DNA of 4,166 nucleotides from a virus (lineage: Duplodnaviria > Heunggongvirae > Uroviricota > Caudoviricetes), in IMG/VR virus record IMGVR_UViG_2645727555_000033, one strand, 5' to 3'. A program made the position numbers and the translations under genes. The notes below the pieces were generated by a model. The model was not told where the DNA came from. It worked only from the letters and a program-made list of their open reading frames with translations, and did no database searches. Shown piece by piece: positions 1,809 through 3,564 of the stretch (positions are counted from its first letter, which is position 1; the number at the start of each line of letters is the position of its first letter).

Positions 1809-1931
1809 CACATCAATCATCTGAACACAGAGCTATAACCATGAAGATTGAATATACGCCAGAACGTGGGCGGGGATTCGTTCGCCCTGGTGAAACTGAA
1901 AAACAACAAAATTGGGGTTTTTCAGGCATAA

Positions 1932-2000
1932 CAAAAAGCGCCCAGTTACCTGAGCGCCTTTGTGAACGATTAACCTGCTGCACAAAAAATAAATATGAGC
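1932..2000 (-). ncRNA. Candidate small RNA of about 65-70 nt (extended -10 promoter plus intrinsic terminator)
   Basis: On the minus strand there is a perfect extended -10 element TGATATAAT (plus coordinates 2015-2007) with no good -35 box. About 45 nt downstream of the predicted start sits a GC-rich hairpin GCGCTCAG-GUAA-CUGGGCGC (plus 1957-1938, 7 of 8 stem pairs, GNRA-type loop), followed immediately by UUUUU (plus 1937-1933). No ORF with a ribosome-binding site lies between promoter and terminator. Confidence 0.3.
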
Positions 2001-2053
2001 ATTGGAATTATATCAACTGTGTGAAGAAGCGCCACAATTGCCGGATTACAGGC

Positions 2054-2080
2054 AAAAAAATGCGACCTATGATGGTCGCA
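2054..2080 (-). terminator. Rho-independent terminator of the minus-strand cassette
   Basis: On the minus strand: stem TGCGACC, loop AUCAUA, stem GGUCGCA (plus 2080-2061), followed by UUUUUUU (plus 2060-2054). It lies about 75 nt downstream of the stop of the 61-aa ORF. Confidence 0.6.
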
Positions 2081-2156
2081 AAAATATGATATACATGTTG
2101 ATTACACTATGCATCGACAACGATGCCACATTTTTGGCTGGTTGGCAAATCTGTCA

Positions 2157-2342
2157 TCAGGGCGGACAACAACGCCACGATCTCATCTTTCTTGGGCAAT
2201 TTTTAAGAAAATCCTCAAGGGCAAATCTTTTTGGCCTTGCTTCCTGTTCATGGTCAGGCATTTCATCCATTTCTCTTAATTTTTTTTCTACCTGTCTTTC
2301 AAGTATGGATAATGCGATTTCCCGTAATTCTTCGTTGTTCAT
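2157..2342 (-). CDS. Hypothetical small protein (61 aa), highly charged with a Cys-rich C-terminus
   Basis: ATG at 2342 is preceded by a strong Shine-Dalgarno (ACAGGAGTAGACA-ATG) and an in-frame stop just upstream. Protein: MNNEELREIALSILERQVEKKLREMDEMPDHEQEARPKRFALEDFLKNCPRKMRSWRCCPP. A terminator follows downstream. I do not recognise a family. Confidence 0.5.
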   Translation of the reverse strand: MNNEELREIALSILERQVEKKLREMDEMPDHEQEARPKRFALEDFLKNCPRKMRSWRCCPP

Positions 2343-2363
2343 TGTCTACTCCTGTAAAGAAAT

Positions 2364-2390
2364 GCGCCGTAGTTCCTCACACCACGGCGC
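2364..2390 (-). promoter_or_regulatory. Intercistronic hairpin between the 34-aa and 61-aa ORFs (possible attenuator)
   Basis: GCGCCGT, a 13-nt loop, then ACGGCGC (2364-2370 and 2384-2390). On the minus strand it is followed by AUUUCUUUAC and then the Shine-Dalgarno of the 61-aa ORF. It sits about 10 nt after the stop of the upstream 34-aa ORF. Confidence 0.3.
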
Positions 2391-2399
2391 TGATAGTTT

Positions 2400-2504
2400 T
2401 TATCCTTTGGGTTCTATGCCGCGTTGCTGTAATTCTTTGCGGATTATTCGCTTTATCCAGGCAGCAAGAGAATCATCGCCGTCCTGTTGTTGTGCCTTTT
2501 CCAT
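2400..2504 (-). CDS. Hypothetical 34-aa ORF (leader-peptide-like or small protein)
   Basis: Translated by hand from the minus strand: ATG at 2504 to TAA at 2402-2400, giving MEKAQQQDGDDSLAAWIKRIIRKELQQRGIEPKG. It is below the size cutoff of the supplied ORF track. The Shine-Dalgarno is weak (GGGAAAAG). Its position immediately upstream of a hairpin and the 61-aa ORF is the main support. Confidence 0.3.
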   Translation of the reverse strand: MEKAQQQDGDDSLAAWIKRIIRKELQQRGIEPKG

Positions 2505-2572
2505 CTTTTCCCGTAAGTCAGGATCTAAACGGAACTGGAACGGAGGATTACCACGCCTTTCGTTTTTGTGTG

Positions 2573-2628
2573 TTGACACGTTAATTACACCTCATGTAAT
2601 GTATTTATGTGTAATGACACATTACACA
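2573..2628 (+). promoter_or_regulatory. Promoter/operator region: consensus -35 TTGACA with four TGTAAT/ATTACA half-sites
   Basis: TTGACA at 2573-2578; a possible -10 TAATGT at 2597-2602 (18-bp spacer). Half-sites: ATTACA 2584-2589, TGTAAT 2595-2600, TGTAAT 2610-2615, ATTACA 2621-2626. The last two lie inside a perfect 9-bp inverted repeat TGTGTAATG-aca-CATTACACA (2608-2628). The operators overlap the spacer, -10 and predicted start, a classic repressor-controlled layout between divergent transcription units. Confidence 0.45.
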
Positions 2629-2646
2629 CAATCAACACAAAAAGCA

Positions 2647-2679
2647 AAGCCCCGCACTGTAGGAGCAGTAACGGGGCTT
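2647..2679. other. Hairpin presenting a Shine-Dalgarno copy (UAGGAG) in its apical loop
   Basis: 8-bp stem AAGCCCCG/CGGGGCTT (2647-2654 and 2672-2679) plus an inner 4-bp stem ACTG/CAGT, with loop TAGGAG (2660-2665). The heptamer TAGGAGC (2660-2666) is repeated exactly as the real ribosome-binding site of the first operon gene (2698-2704). On the minus strand the hairpin is followed by a U-rich run (CUUUGCUUUUUGUG), so it could also act as a minus-strand terminator. Confidence 0.4.
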
Positions 2680-2708
2680 CTAACCAACAACGTAAACTAG
2701 GAGCCGTT

Positions 2709-2903
2709 ATGGTTGCCGTAAATCATATACCACACCTTGTACACACACAAACGGCCTTTGTGTGGCGTTTTCTGGCACTGAGTGCCGGAGAATCTCAAAT
2801 CATCCACGTAACCGCCTGGAGGGAACGCGAAGCGCGTAGCCGTTGCCCGTCCGGTTGTGTTGCTGTATTCGCCGCCCGTATTCGTCAGGGGGTAGGCTTA
2901 TGA
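2709..2903 (+). CDS. Hypothetical small protein (64 aa), first gene of the plus-strand operon
   Basis: ATG at 2709 with Shine-Dalgarno TAGGAG five nt upstream. Its TGA stop overlaps the next start (ATGA at 2900-2903). Codon usage looks enterobacterial. Protein: MVAVNHIPHLVHTQTAFVWRFLALSAGESQIIHVTAWREREARSRCPSGCVAVFAARIRQGVGL. The longer track ORF from 2607 has no ribosome-binding site and is rejected. Confidence 0.45.
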   Translation: MVAVNHIPHLVHTQTAFVWRFLALSAGESQIIHVTAWREREARSRCPSGCVAVFAARIRQGVGL

Positions 2904-3133
2904 GTCAGGAAATCACACTACAACAGGCAGCAGAACGCGCCCACCAAATCGAAGTTATTTGCGCACTGGCAGAGGATTACCCTGGCATGATGACCGACAG
3001 CGAATCAGGGGCAATCATCGGCTTACTTAAACGCCTTAGCGGTGAGGTCTGCGTATTCCTGAGCGATGAACAGGAAAGAAGAACGCTTATTTCTAACGAA
3101 AAAAAATGCGGAGGGGTACACCATGTGCAATAA
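2900..3133 (+). CDS. Hypothetical small protein (77 aa)
   Basis: ATG at 2900 with a G-rich Shine-Dalgarno (GGGGGTAGG), coupled to the upstream stop by ATGA overlap. Protein: MSQEITLQQAAERAHQIEVICALAEDYPGMMTDSESGAIIGLLKRLSGEVCVFLSDEQERRTLISNEKKCGGVHHVQ. Confidence 0.6.
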   Translation: MSQEITLQQAAERAHQIEVICALAEDYPGMMTDSESGAIIGLLKRLSGEVCVFLSDEQERRTLISNEKKCGGVHHVQ

Positions 3134-3350
3134 AACCACACCGGACGCAGCCGCCGCCGCACTCACTACGCTGATGCACGCGCTTATTGATATTGAATGC
3201 ACGGCAGAGCTTGCACAAAAGGAAGAACGGGAGGAATACACATTGTTCGCCCTGGAATGTATCCGATACACCGCCACGCGGTCGCTGAATGACGCTAAAA
3301 ATATTCTTGTTGCTGATTGTGAAAATGGGGAGGGGGGGGGTTATGCGTGA
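3123..3350 (+). CDS. Hypothetical small protein (75 aa); its 3' end carries a G9 tract
   Basis: ATG at 3123 preceded by GGAGGGG, overlapping the end of the previous gene by 11 nt. Protein: MCNKTTPDAAAAALTTLMHALIDIECTAELAQKEEREEYTLFALECIRYTATRSLNDAKNILVADCENGEGGGYA. The last codons run through GGGG-A-GGGGGGGGG (3327-3340). Confidence 0.5.
   Translation: MCNKTTPDAAAAALTTLMHALIDIECTAELAQKEEREEYTLFALECIRYTATRSLNDAKNILVADCENGEGGGYA
3332..3340 (+). repeat. G9 homopolymer tract at the junction of the third and fourth operon genes
   Basis: Read directly: nine consecutive G at 3332-3340, preceded by GGGGA. The tract encodes the C-terminal Gly residues of the upstream ORF and also serves as the ribosome-binding site of the downstream ORF, whose ATG is at 3343 in the +1 frame. 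Confidence 0.9.
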
Positions 3351-3564
3351 TGATCGTTTTAATTCCCTGAAACAAGAATTTTCCGGCGTTCCTGATGATG
3401 CGGCTGATGCGCTTTCGTCAATATCTGAAATTATGCGGGTGGCTTTTTTCTTTCTTTTCACTGATGAGCACAGAGGTACAGGGCTAAATATTCTTGATAT
3501 TGCCGCTAACTATGCTGATTTCGTGACAGAAGCTGTTTTAAGAAAAACAACGGACGGGGATTAA
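3343..3564 (+). CDS. Hypothetical small protein (73 aa)
   Basis: ATG at 3343 immediately after the G-rich tract, overlapping the upstream stop by 8 nt. Protein: MRDDRFNSLKQEFSGVPDDAADALSSISEIMRVAFFFLFTDEHRGTGLNILDIAANYADFVTEAVLRKTTDGD. It may instead be the C-terminal half of a single fused gene (see findings). Confidence 0.5.
   Translation: MRDDRFNSLKQEFSGVPDDAADALSSISEIMRVAFFFLFTDEHRGTGLNILDIAANYADFVTEAVLRKTTDGD

What the first reader, a model, noticed from the sequence alone, without database searches (positions are those of the whole stretch)
2573..2628. Operator array of four TGTAAT/ATTACA half-sites overlapping a consensus -35 promoter
A perfect TTGACA box is followed by two palindromes built from the same hexamer: ATTACA-N5-TGTAAT at 2584-2600 and TGTGTAATG-aca-CATTACACA at 2608-2628. 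Half-site centres are 11, 15 and 11 bp apart. They cover the spacer, the -10 and the predicted start of the operon promoter, as expected for a dimeric repressor controlling the small-gene operon. The cognate binding protein is unknown; candidates are AlpA or the 61-aa product of the divergent cassette.
Basis: seen in the sequence. Interest (0 to 1): 0.5.

Follow-up and report, generated by a model that had tools for sequence, protein, structure and literature searches.

The report
Operator sites of a satellite repressor
Four copies of a short DNA word sit on the promoter that starts a phage satellite's replication genes, and comparison with relatives points to them being landing sites for a small, often unannotated repressor encoded next door, which may be an overlooked off switch of these islands.

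Summary
TTGACA (2573-2578) is followed by four TGTAAT/ATTACA half-sites at exactly the stated coordinates. Such a cluster is rare by chance (2 of 1000 shuffles) and is conserved across Enterobacterales and Orbaceae.

The window is the left end of a cf-PICI/PICI-type phage satellite. The operator reading is supported, but not the proposed binding proteins. The best candidate is the 59-aa ribbon-helix-helix, Arc-like protein encoded at 2579..2400 on the minus strand. Its start codon overlaps the TTGACA box.

The main evidence is comparative. Seven specificity types of this small protein each carry a different repeated motif in the same layout: -35, motif, -10, motif. The protein's N-terminal half and the array diverge together, while the flanks stay 85-89% identical. 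AlpA and the 61-aa ORF do not track the array.

Half-sites 2 and 4 are most strongly conserved as GTAATGT and probably double as -10 elements of two facing promoters.

Next to the array lies a conserved antisense RNA of about 77 nt (2714..2636, minus strand). It has compensatory base changes, covers the ribosome-binding site of the first, Icd-like gene, and has no Rfam family.

The same module is present in EcCICFT073 and in an O157:H7 island of the cf-PICI type. No binding or transcript data exist.

The parts
2573..2578 (+). -35 box TTGACA of the rightward (operon) promoter. It lies inside codons 1-3 (GTG TCA ACA) of the minus-strand 59-aa gene.
   Evidence: Sequence. Each base is kept in at least 81 of 85 relatives. 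Third-codon positions 2574, 2571 and 2568 are at least 90% conserved, against 40-60% at 2565, 2562, 2556, 2553 and 2550. The equivalent box TTGACG scores 10/12 with TATAGT in EcCICFT073.
2584..2590 (.). Half-site 1, ATTACAC, in the promoter spacer. On the minus strand it flanks the Shine-Dalgarno GAGG (2593..2590) of the 59-aa gene.
   Evidence: I14, I18. Conserved in 74-84 of 85 per position.
2595..2602 (.). Half-site 2, TGTAATGT. It holds the candidate -10 of the rightward promoter: TGTAAT with a 16-nt spacer, or TAATGT (2597-2602) with an 18-nt spacer.
   Evidence: TAATGT is better conserved (82, 82, 65, 81, 82, 83 of 85) than the leading TG (59, 70 of 85). The pattern TAnnGT is kept in the variants listed, apart from a few exceptions such as CAATGT in L056. 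The consensus scan did not call this promoter because the -10 is non-consensus.
2608..2616 (.). Half-site 3, TGTGTAATG, the left arm of the 9-3-9 palindrome, at about +1 of the rightward promoter.
   Evidence: TGTGT is kept in 82-85 of 85, but 2613 is A50/G27/C7 and 2616 is G67/T17.
2619..2628 (.). Half-site 4, ACATTACACA, the right arm. On the minus strand TAATGT (2624..2619) is the candidate -10 of a leftward promoter for the 59-aa gene.
   Evidence: ACATTAC is kept in at least 79 of 85, while 2626-2628 reach only 40-56 of 85. T, A and the final T of the minus-strand hexamer also survive in Gilliamella variants (TAACAT, TAATAT). It forms an inverted repeat with 2595-2602 (I9; 91.7% complementary across 64 sequences).
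2642..2647 (-). Candidate -35 (TTGCTT, read 2647..2642) of the leftward promoter. It overlaps the U-tail of the antisense RNA terminator. This is inferred.
   Evidence: A TTG directly after the hairpin is near-invariant (positions 2645-2647, 83-84 of 85). TTGCTT-17-TACACT occurs in type 2 and TTGATT-16-TACAAT in the O157:H7 island. The assignment is not clear in EcCICFT073.
2400..2579 (-). Gene for a 59-aa ribbon-helix-helix (Arc-like) protein, the proposed cognate repressor. GTG start; ATG at the same position in Xenorhabdus relatives.
   Evidence: ORF. PHROG 228 'Arc-like repressor', E=2.1e-6. NCBIfam YlcI/YnfO, E=5e-4, below its cutoff. The AF2 model has two helices after an extended N-terminus, pLDDT 78.5. 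Foldseek hits are nearly all RHH proteins (19 of 21; NikR, CopA_SO, Arc, CopG, PutA), but with E>=2. 117 homologues were found, and the beta-strand RRGNPPFQFRLDP is invariant in 65 of 66 type-1 variants. The gene is not annotated in the closest RefSeq genome.
2364..2390 (-). Terminator-like hairpin directly after the 59-aa gene. It separates that gene from the 61-aa ORF (2342..2157).
   Evidence: 10 pairs, 7 of them G-C, followed by a T-rich tail.
2636..2714 (-). Conserved antisense small RNA of about 77 nt, complementary to the leader, Shine-Dalgarno and start codon of the first operon gene. Hairpin 1 spans 2714..2682 with the anti-SD CUCCUA in its loop. A conserved UUGGUUAGA follows. The terminator hairpin spans 2680..2646, with a U-tail at 2645..2636.
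   Evidence: RNAalifold on 64 sequences: 23 pairs, 13 with compensatory changes. 95.7% of cells are paired, 0 of 500 shuffles reach this, and slid controls give 36-46%. Strand test: minus strand 95.7% paired with 219 G.U cells, plus strand 81.9% with 16. The window RNA folds at -30.5 kcal/mol, z -3.3. The covariance model finds it in every specificity type tested (types 1, 2, 3, 5, 6 and 7) but not in P4. There is no Rfam family at E<=1 apart from a chance-level rnk leader hit.
2722..2727 (-). -10 element TATGAT (read 2727..2722) of the antisense RNA promoter, inside codons 5-7 of the Icd-like gene.
   Evidence: The TAnnnT hexamer is kept at this aligned position in 63 of 64 relatives, although the overlapping genes differ.
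2699..2711 (+). Shine-Dalgarno AGGAG (2699-2703) and ATG (2709-2711) of the first operon gene, the presumed target of the antisense RNA.
   Evidence: Sequence. Complementary to loop 1 of the antisense RNA.
2709..2903 (+). Icd-like gene, first gene of the rightward operon. The operon continues through small ORFs and DUF4222 to the RepA helicase and the packaging genes of the island.
   Evidence: NCBIfam phage_ICD_like, E=1.4e-16. Island map in the nearest genome.

Best explanation
The array is the operator set of a small ribbon-helix-helix (Arc/Mnt-like) repressor. That repressor is encoded immediately to its left on the opposite strand (59 aa, 2579..2400). The whole unit sits in the control region of a cf-PICI/PICI-type phage satellite.

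Proposed mechanism (inferred):
- Dimers, or dimers of dimers, of the repressor bind the TGTAATG-type half-sites. The 11-bp spacing places paired half-sites one helical turn apart.
- The sites cover the spacer, the -10 and the start of the rightward promoter (TTGACA, 16-18 nt, TGTAATGT). Binding therefore keeps the Icd-like/replication operon silent in the integrated state.
- Half-sites 2 and 4 (GTAATGT on either strand) probably double as the -10 hexamers of two facing promoters. Occupancy of the second palindrome would then also limit the repressor's own leftward promoter.
- A constitutively made antisense RNA (2714..2636, minus strand) adds a second lock. It pairs with the leader and ribosome-binding site of the first operon gene.

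Shown here:
- The sequence anatomy.
- Conservation of the array.
- Co-variation of motif identity with repressor type.
- RNA covariation and the strand that carries the RNA.

Inferred only:
- Protein binding and its stoichiometry.
- Transcription start sites.
- Direction of regulation.
- How induction by AlpA or the helper phage overcomes the block.
For: 1. The protein is Arc-like. It matches PHROG 228, E=2e-6. Foldseek neighbours are nearly all RHH proteins (19 of 21). The best PDB profile hit is the RHH regulator ArtA.

2. The array is conserved far above its surroundings in 85 distinct relatives.

3. Motif and protein change together. Seven specificity types share the layout -35 | repeat | -10 | repeat, each with its own repeat:
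- Type 1, PPFQFRLD: TGTAAT.
- Type 2, KQIALRVE: TGATTAC-N9-GTAATCA, with the complementary variant TGACTA..TAGTCA in L125.
- Type 3, PPYQMRLP, O157:H7 island: GGTAAT and ATGGTAATTACCAT.
- Type 4, QYQIRLA: TTGTAATTACAA, twice.
- Type 5: GTGCGCAC.
- Type 6: TGTAAG/CTTACA.
- Type 7, EcCICFT073: the 12-nt direct repeat TGGGCCACACCT flanking the -10 of TTGACG-18-TATAGT.

4. Mosaic pattern. Against the O157:H7 island, the repressor's N-terminal half is 51% identical and the array 53%. The C-terminal half is 85% and the antisense RNA/leader 89% identical.

5. The array tracks the RHH type, not AlpA or the 61-aa ORF.

6. There is no complementary covariation inside the palindromes, so they are DNA signals and not RNA hairpins.

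7. Synonymous sites under TTGACA are conserved.
Against: - There are no binding, footprint or transcript data.
- Foldseek E-values are not significant (>=2). The monomer model shows no beta-strand. Pfam gives no hit and the NCBIfam hit is below its cutoff.
- Within type 1 the DNA-contacting strand is invariant, so no fine co-variation test is possible.
- The best-conserved half-sites (2 and 4) could be conserved purely as -10 elements.
- Five of the seven types share a GTAA core, which could instead point to a common factor.
- Several types rest on one or two loci.
- The window's -10 is non-consensus and the promoter scan did not call it.
- The leftward promoter is not evident in EcCICFT073.
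- Relatives were collected with the protein as query, so shared ancestry inflates the raw conservation.
Confidence: 0.7

Rival explanations
1. The four sites are bound by some other protein: a host factor, a helper-phage protein, or another island protein. The 59-aa protein would have a different job.
For: Five of the seven specificity types share a GTAA(T) core. This could reflect one common reader. No binding data exist.
Against: Types 5 and 7 have unrelated repeats (GTGCGCAC, TGGGCCACACCT) in the same positions. The motif changes together with the N-terminal, DNA-binding half of the adjacent protein, while the flanks stay 85-89% identical.
Confidence: 0.1
2. There is no dedicated operator. 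The repeats are only overlapping core promoter elements (two facing -10 hexamers plus a -35) and the ribosome-binding region of the 59-aa gene. Symmetry arises because two promoters face each other.
For: GTAATGT at 2596-2602 and its mirror at 2619-2625 are the best-conserved parts and fit TAnnnT. Half-site 3 is variable at 2613-2614.
Against: Non-critical -10 positions, such as the G of TAATGT, are kept in 59-64 of 64 sequences. That is more than sigma-70 recognition requires. Half-site 1 (74-84 of 85) has no promoter role. Other types place type-specific repeats in the spacer and after the -10, outside the hexamers.
Confidence: 0.1
3. AlpA (1595-1783) is the cognate binding protein.
For: AlpA is a DNA-binding regulator and the known activator of Gram-negative PICIs (PMC6092414). 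It is encoded nearby.
Against: The O157:H7 island has a nearly identical AlpA (61/62) but a different motif. Islands with 35-56% identical AlpA keep the TGTAAT array. AlpA activates its own promoter in EcCICFT073 (PMC6092414), yet no TGTAAT lies in 1231-1594.
Confidence: 0.05
4. The 61-aa product (2342..2157) is the binding protein, or the 59-aa and 61-aa pair is a toxin-antitoxin module that autoregulates through the palindromes.
For: RHH antitoxins commonly autoregulate through palindromic operators. There is a weak VapB-antitoxin hit, E=0.012.
Against: The 61-aa ORF is found in 9 of 123 related loci and not always downstream. A terminator-like hairpin separates the two genes. The 61-aa ORF has no family hit in any library.
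Confidence: 0.03

Closest known systems
Immunity I region of phage P22 (Mnt and Arc repressors plus sar antisense RNA controlling ant)
   Same: Small ribbon-helix-helix repressors act on short symmetric operators laid over promoters in a compact bidirectional control region. A small antisense RNA is complementary to the ribosome-binding region of a regulated gene (overview in PMC2629481; operator details from general knowledge). The 59-aa protein matches the PHROG family 'Arc-like repressor'.
   Different: There is one repressor, not two. The controlled genes are an Icd-like gene and a satellite replication/packaging operon, not an antirepressor. The antisense RNA is not matched by any Rfam family (Rfam's sar family, per my recollection, is in the library searched). 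The host element is a phage satellite, and there are at least seven swappable specificities.
pMV158/pLS1 copy-number control (CopG ribbon-helix-helix repressor plus antisense RNA II)
   Same: Dual control of a replication operon by an RHH transcriptional repressor and a countertranscript that covers the initiator's translation start (from general knowledge). CopG is among the structural neighbours (2cpg).
   Different: copG is co-transcribed with repB, whereas here the repressor gene is divergent. That system is on a plasmid, not an integrated satellite. No sequence homology was shown.
P1 immI (c4 RNA-icd-ant) and P4 immunity (CI RNA, seqA/seqC); Rfam C4, isrK, c4-a1b1
   Same: An Icd-like first gene of an operon is put under control of a small RNA that targets its leader. 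C4/isrK-type RNAs do occur deeper in the operons of some related islands (L129, L153) and were reported in Gram-negative PICIs (PMC10111431).
   Different: C4 and CI are processed from the sense transcript. The RNA here is on the opposite strand by the G.U test. It gets no C4 or isrK hit, and its covariance model finds nothing in P4. P4 has no homologue of the 59-aa protein.
Stl/Rpr master repressors of Gram-positive PICIs (SaPIs)
   Same: The position is the same: between the int side and the replication module, divergent from the operon it would silence (PMC6092414).
   Different: No sequence or fold relation was detected or tested. How this protein would be inactivated by a helper phage is unknown. 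Gram-negative PICIs are described as controlled by the activator AlpA, with a global repressor 'unclear' (PMC6092414).

Membership tests
Ribbon-helix-helix (Arc/MetJ/CopG) repressor-operator systems | The protein belongs to the RHH sequence and fold class: an N-terminal beta-strand followed by two helices, forming an obligate dimer. | tested here: met
   PHROG 228 'Arc-like repressor', E=2.1e-6. The AF2 model has helices 20-33 and 38-52 after an extended segment. 19 of 21 Foldseek hits are RHH proteins with rmsd 0.6-1.6 A over 30-39 columns in most (the remaining few 1.9-8.9 A), though E>=2. The best PDB profile hit is the RHH protein ArtA, E=0.28. Weak points: no Pfam hit, NCBIfam below cutoff, and the dimer was not modelled.
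Ribbon-helix-helix (Arc/MetJ/CopG) repressor-operator systems | The operator is made of short repeated subsites, inverted or direct, about one helical turn apart, overlapping a promoter. | tested here: met
   There are four half-sites with centres 11, 15 and 11 bp apart over the spacer, -10 and start. Equivalent repeats occur in seven types.
Ribbon-helix-helix (Arc/MetJ/CopG) repressor-operator systems | Operator sequence co-varies with the DNA-reading beta-strand of the cognate protein. | tested here: met
   Different beta-strands go with different repeats. The N-terminal half and the array diverge together while the flanks are conserved. No test is possible within type 1, where the strand is invariant.
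Ribbon-helix-helix (Arc/MetJ/CopG) repressor-operator systems | Direct, sequence-specific binding of the protein to the sites, and repression. | not testable with these tools
   Needs EMSA, footprinting and reporter assays.
P22 immI-type module (RHH repressor(s) plus antisense RNA) | A small antisense RNA with its own promoter and terminator, complementary to the ribosome-binding region of a regulated gene. | tested here: met
   Covariation and strand test. The TAnnnT -10 is conserved in 63 of 64 sequences. There is a terminator hairpin with a U-tail. Expression itself was not tested.
P22 immI-type module (RHH repressor(s) plus antisense RNA) | The regulated gene is an antirepressor (ant), and the RNA is homologous to sar. 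| tested here: not met
   The first genes are Icd-like and small ORFs. Nothing in Rfam, sar included, matches the region.
C4 / P4 CI immunity RNA family (Rfam RF01695, RF01394, RF03163) | A match to the C4, isrK or c4-a1b1 covariance models on the operon strand. | tested here: not met
   No hit in the window at E<=1. Positive controls P4, L129 and L153 score 62-77 bits for C4.
Type II toxin-antitoxin with RHH antitoxin | A conserved toxin gene co-transcribed with the RHH gene. | tested here: not met
   The 61-aa ORF is present in 9 of 123 loci. A terminator-like hairpin lies between the two genes. The 61-aa ORF has no toxin family hit.
cf-PICI / Gram-negative PICI satellites (context of the window) | int and alpA, a unidirectional replication module, then PerC and packaging genes, at a PICI attachment site. 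| tested here: met
   The nearest genome shows int, an AlpA-type HTH, Icd-like, DUF4222, RepA helicase, SSB, PerC, capsid, protease, portal, HNH, TerS and TerL next to roxA. EcCICFT073 uses the same site and layout. Only the left 4.2 kb lies in the window.

The most novel reading that the evidence does not exclude
The small RHH protein with its operator array, together with the adjacent antisense RNA, is the so far undescribed repression and immunity system of Gram-negative PICIs and cf-PICIs. It is present in the prototype EcCICFT073 and in an O157:H7 island of the cf-PICI type. Its seven or more exchangeable specificity cassettes would define satellite immunity groups. Induction by AlpA or the helper phage would work by overriding or bypassing it.
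Probability: 0.35. Interest if true: 0.75.

Novelty: new variant of a known kind. Interest (0 to 1): 0.55.

Why it matters
Gram-negative PICIs and cf-PICIs are described as switched on by the activator AlpA. [quoted passage not shown]

This work points to a concrete candidate off switch at the head of the replication operon. It has three parts: a conserved, often unannotated Arc-like protein, type-specific operators over the operon promoter, and an antisense RNA over the first gene's ribosome-binding site.

It also makes the question directly testable, because the same module is present in the laboratory model EcCICFT073 and in an O157:H7 island of the cf-PICI type.

Two practical consequences follow:
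- Annotation: in RefSeq, the closest genome (FORC_042) and an O157:H7 genome carry a long spurious plus-strand ORF or pseudogene here, and the small gene is missed.
- Classification: the specificity cassettes offer a way to sort satellites into putative immunity groups.

Tried and rejected
- Pfam gave nothing for the 59-aa and 61-aa ORFs. NCBIfam gave only a sub-threshold YlcI/YnfO hit.
- Rfam at E<=1 gave only two chance-level hits: sau-6072, and an rnk leader hit driven by the terminator.
- I tested whether the hairpin RNA is a P4 CI/C4-type immunity RNA. It is not. There are no C4 or isrK hits in the window, although P4 and two related loci score strongly. My covariance model finds nothing in P4.
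- I tested whether the palindromes are RNA hairpins under selection. There is no complementary covariation in 64 sequences.
- I tested the palindrome alone for rarity. It is not rare. My first cluster statistic was polluted by homopolymers and was redone with non-overlapping copies.
- The promoter consensus scan did not call the window's rightward promoter. It did call the equivalent promoter in EcCICFT073.
- The toxin-antitoxin reading, AlpA and the 61-aa ORF were rejected as cognate partners.
- The Foldseek and PDB sequence searches gave the right fold class without statistical significance.
- tblastn against phage genomes found the protein only in a Pasteurella PICI-like record and three distant hits, and not in P4.
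- Literature searches found no description of this protein, its operators or this antisense RNA. Search terms covered YlcI/YnfO/DUF3950, RHH with PICI, Icd-like with antisense RNA, and cf-PICI regulation.
- The leftward promoter assignment could not be generalised to EcCICFT073.
Full report
**Observation.** TTGACA lies at 2573-2578. ATTACA-N5-TGTAAT lies at 2584-2600. The perfect 9-3-9 palindrome TGTGTAATG-aca-CATTACACA lies at 2608-2628. Hexamer centres are 11, 15 and 11 bp apart. The repeat finder adds that three of the four units are 7-mers (ATTACAC/GTGTAAT). It also shows that TGTAATGT (2595-2602) is mirrored by ACATTACA (2619-2626).

**Is it more than chance?** TGTAAT occurs 9 times in the window against 2.5 +/- 1.5 expected. 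Four non-overlapping copies of one hexamer within 45 nt were reached in 2 of 1000 dinucleotide shuffles. A 9-nt-arm palindrome alone is not unusual: 48 of 300 shuffles had one.

**Context.** The window is the left end of a phage satellite of the PICI/cf-PICI kind. The closest E. coli genome shows, next to roxA, this gene order: integrase, an AlpA-type HTH protein, an Icd-like gene, small ORFs, DUF4222, a RepA helicase, SSB, PerC, then capsid, protease, portal, HNH and terminase genes. AlpA, DUF4222 and the Icd-like protein are confirmed by Pfam and NCBIfam.

Between alpA and the rightward operon lie two minus-strand ORFs: 59 aa (2579..2400) and 61 aa (2342..2157). The 59-aa ORF starts with GTG at 2579, so its first three codons are the complement of the TTGACA box. 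Its Shine-Dalgarno GAGG (2593..2590) lies in the spacer of the first palindrome.

**The 59-aa protein is Arc-like.**
- It matches PHROG 228 'Arc-like repressor', E=2.1e-6.
- It matches NCBIfam YlcI/YnfO weakly, E=5e-4, below that model's cutoff.
- An AlphaFold model built on 21 homologues has an extended N-terminus followed by helices 20-33 and 38-52, with pLDDT 78.5.
- Its Foldseek neighbours in the PDB are nearly all ribbon-helix-helix domains (19 of 21): NikR, CopA_SO, VapB, Arc, CopG, PutA and MazE9, most at rmsd 0.6-1.6 A over 30-39 columns. The E-values are at least 2, as expected for so small a domain.
- The best PDB profile hit is the RHH regulator ArtA, E=0.28.
- The fold class is therefore well indicated but not statistically proven by structure search alone.

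**Conservation of the array.** With the protein as query I collected 123 loci from genomes and viral contigs. They come from Enterobacterales, Orbaceae and others. In 85 distinct sequences:
- Every base of TTGACA is kept in at least 81.
- ATTACAC is kept in 74-84.
- TAATGT (2597-2602) is kept in 65-83.
- TGTGT (2608-2612) is kept in 82-85.
- ACATTAC (2619-2625) is kept in at least 79.
- The palindrome spacer 2591-2594 and positions 2631-2638 are only 30-65% conserved.

Third-codon positions 2574, 2571 and 2568 of the minus-strand gene are at least 90% conserved. Further third positions are 40-60% conserved. This argues for DNA-level selection on the -35 box.

The perfect 9-3-9 palindrome is not the conserved unit. 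Positions 2626-2628 and 2613 vary freely. The palindrome arms also show no complementary covariation: 0 to 1 complementary double changes per pair in 64 sequences. The symmetry therefore acts at the DNA level and is not an RNA hairpin under selection.

**Who binds?** Within this first type the beta-strand RRGNPPFQFRLDP is invariant in 65 of 66 protein variants, so no fine co-variation test is possible. More distant relatives supply that test. All share the same layout: the -35, then a repeat copy directly after it, then the -10, then a second copy at or after the -10.

| Type | Beta-strand or protein | Repeat |
|---|---|---|
| 1 (window) | PPFQFRLD | TGTAAT |
| 2 | KQIALRVE | No TGTAAT; TGATTAC-N9-GTAATCA, with the complementary variant TGACTA..TAGTCA in one locus |
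| 3 (O157:H7 island next to roxA) | Unannotated 57-aa protein, PPYQMRLP | GGTAATT and the palindrome ATGGTAATTACCAT |
| 4 | QYQIRLA | TTGTAATTACAA, twice |
| 5 | More distant YlcI/YnfO-annotated protein | GTGCGCAC |
| 6 | More distant YlcI/YnfO-annotated protein | TGTAAG/CTTACA |
| 7 (EcCICFT073) | 59-aa YlcI/YnfO protein | 12-nt direct repeat TGGGCCACACCT, flanking the -10 of a near-consensus TTGACG-18-TATAGT promoter |

Against the O157:H7 island, the repressor's N-terminal half and the array are 51% and 53% identical to the window. The C-terminal half is 85% identical and the downstream leader 89%. This is the mosaic pattern expected for a specificity cassette made of a DNA-binding segment plus its sites.

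The O157:H7 AlpA is 61/62 identical to the window's, yet the motif differs. Islands whose AlpA is 35-56% identical keep the TGTAAT array. No TGTAAT lies upstream of alpA. The 61-aa ORF is found in only 9 of 123 loci, and a terminator-like hairpin separates it from the 59-aa gene.

**Promoters (inferred).** The conservation pattern favours TAATGT (2597-2602, 18-nt spacer) over TGTAAT (16-nt spacer) as the rightward -10. TA and the final GT are kept in nearly all variants, while the leading TG is not. The simple consensus scan did not call this promoter.

The mirror element reads TAATGT on the minus strand (2624..2619). It keeps T, A and the final T even in Gilliamella. It lies 17 nt downstream of a near-invariant TTG (2647..2645). 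The equivalents in other types are TTGCTT-17-TACACT and TTGATT-16-TACAAT.

I therefore propose two facing promoters whose -10 hexamers are half-sites 2 and 4. Each palindrome would then control one of them. This part is the least secure, and it is not evident in EcCICFT073.

**A second regulator next to the array.** The hairpin at 2646-2680 is a terminator on the minus strand.
- An alignment of 64 sequences gives a three-helix consensus with 13 of 23 pairs showing compensatory changes.
- 95.7% of cells are paired. No shuffle out of 500 reaches this, and slid controls give 36-46%.
- Read as minus-strand RNA the helices are 95.7% paired with 219 G.U cells. Read as plus-strand RNA they are 81.9% paired with 16. 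The RNA is therefore antisense to the operon.
- A TAnnnT hexamer (TATGAT, 2727..2722) is kept in 63 of 64 sequences inside different coding genes. This places the start near 2714.
- The RNA of about 77 nt carries the anti-Shine-Dalgarno CUCCU in the loop of its first hairpin. It covers the SD and ATG of the Icd-like gene.
- It has no Rfam family and is not the P4 CI/C4 type. A covariance model finds it in every specificity type tested (types 1, 2, 3, 5, 6 and 7), including EcCICFT073.

**Comparison with the known.** Functionally the module resembles the P22 immI region, which has RHH repressors Mnt and Arc plus the sar antisense RNA (PMC2629481). It also resembles pMV158 CopG plus RNA II (general knowledge). 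The Icd-like first gene recalls P1 immI. In position it corresponds to Stl/Rpr of Gram-positive PICIs.

The papers I could read describe AlpA as the activator of Gram-negative PICIs. They call a global repressor 'unclear' (PMC6092414). For immunity functions they mention only Bro-network proteins and C4/isrK-type RNAs (PMC10111431). None mentions this protein, its operators or this antisense RNA.

**Verdict.** The operator reading is supported by strong comparative evidence but no experiment. The cognate protein is most likely the adjacent Arc-like 59-aa protein, not AlpA or the 61-aa ORF.

The mechanism is conventional. Its setting is new and directly testable: a conserved, poorly annotated repressor-plus-antisense-RNA module with exchangeable specificities at the head of the replication operon of Gram-negative phage satellites.

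Noticed in passing
window 2636-2727, minus strand: A conserved antisense small RNA gene lies here: a -10 TATGAT, an anti-SD hairpin, a conserved UUGGUUAGA, and an intrinsic terminator. It covers the leader and ribosome-binding site of the Icd-like gene. It has compensatory base changes, a G.U strand signature, and no Rfam family.
   Followed up: yes
window 2002-2700 plus strand; L001 10840-11700; L187 2108-2701: A long plus-strand ORF runs antisense to the 59-aa and 61-aa genes and across the control region. RefSeq annotates it as a 286-aa hypothetical protein in FORC_042 and as an incomplete 'Icd-like' pseudogene in O157:H7. The Arc-like gene is left unannotated there. The translation looks like a shadow ORF (Cys/Ser-rich, no family hit).
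   Followed up: partly
window 2660-2674 and 2698-2712: A direct repeat, TAGGAGCAGTAACGG versus TAGGAGCCGTTATGG. In this variant the terminator loop of the antisense RNA also reads CUCCUA, so the RNA shows two anti-Shine-Dalgarno loops. Most relatives have GUGUUCCCGCAC there instead.
   Followed up: partly
window 3327-3340: A G-rich run, GGGGAGGGGGGGGG (nine G at 3332-3340), sits at the junction of ORFs 3123-3350 and 3343-3564. The two ORFs match the two halves of one PHROG (phrog_2512, positions 1-75 and 78-146). The nearest genome annotates a single 465-nt gene there. This may be a frameshift, a slippage tract or a sequencing error.
   Followed up: partly
L129 1096-1656 and L153 460-1245 (operon strand): Some related islands carry duplicated C4/isrK (P4 CI-type) immunity RNA units deeper in the same operon, in addition to the RHH and antisense RNA module. 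The window has none.
   Followed up: partly
L129 1732-2311; L130 374-998: In a Salmonella relative, a BrnT/BrnA toxin-antitoxin pair is inserted beside the RHH control region, on the operon side of the antisense RNA (upstream of the RHH gene and on the same strand as it). Other relatives carry Doc-type toxin or TIR-domain genes next to the module (L191, L192). This suggests the site is an accessory-gene hotspot.
   Followed up: no
window 2061-2080 and 1931-1985, minus strand: Two terminator-like hairpins on the minus strand lie inside the plus-strand 82-aa ORF (1841-2089), downstream of the 61-aa ORF. One gave a chance-level Rfam hit (sau-6072). This raises doubt about whether the 82-aa ORF is a real gene.
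   Followed up: no
L194 7715-7755 (E. coli CFT073, NC_004431 1380714-1380754): The model PICI EcCICFT073 has a near-consensus promoter, TTGACG-18-TATAGT, bracketed by a perfect 12-nt direct repeat TGGGCCACACCT. It lies next to a 59-aa YlcI/YnfO-annotated gene and the same antisense RNA. This is an experimentally convenient version of the module.
   Followed up: partly
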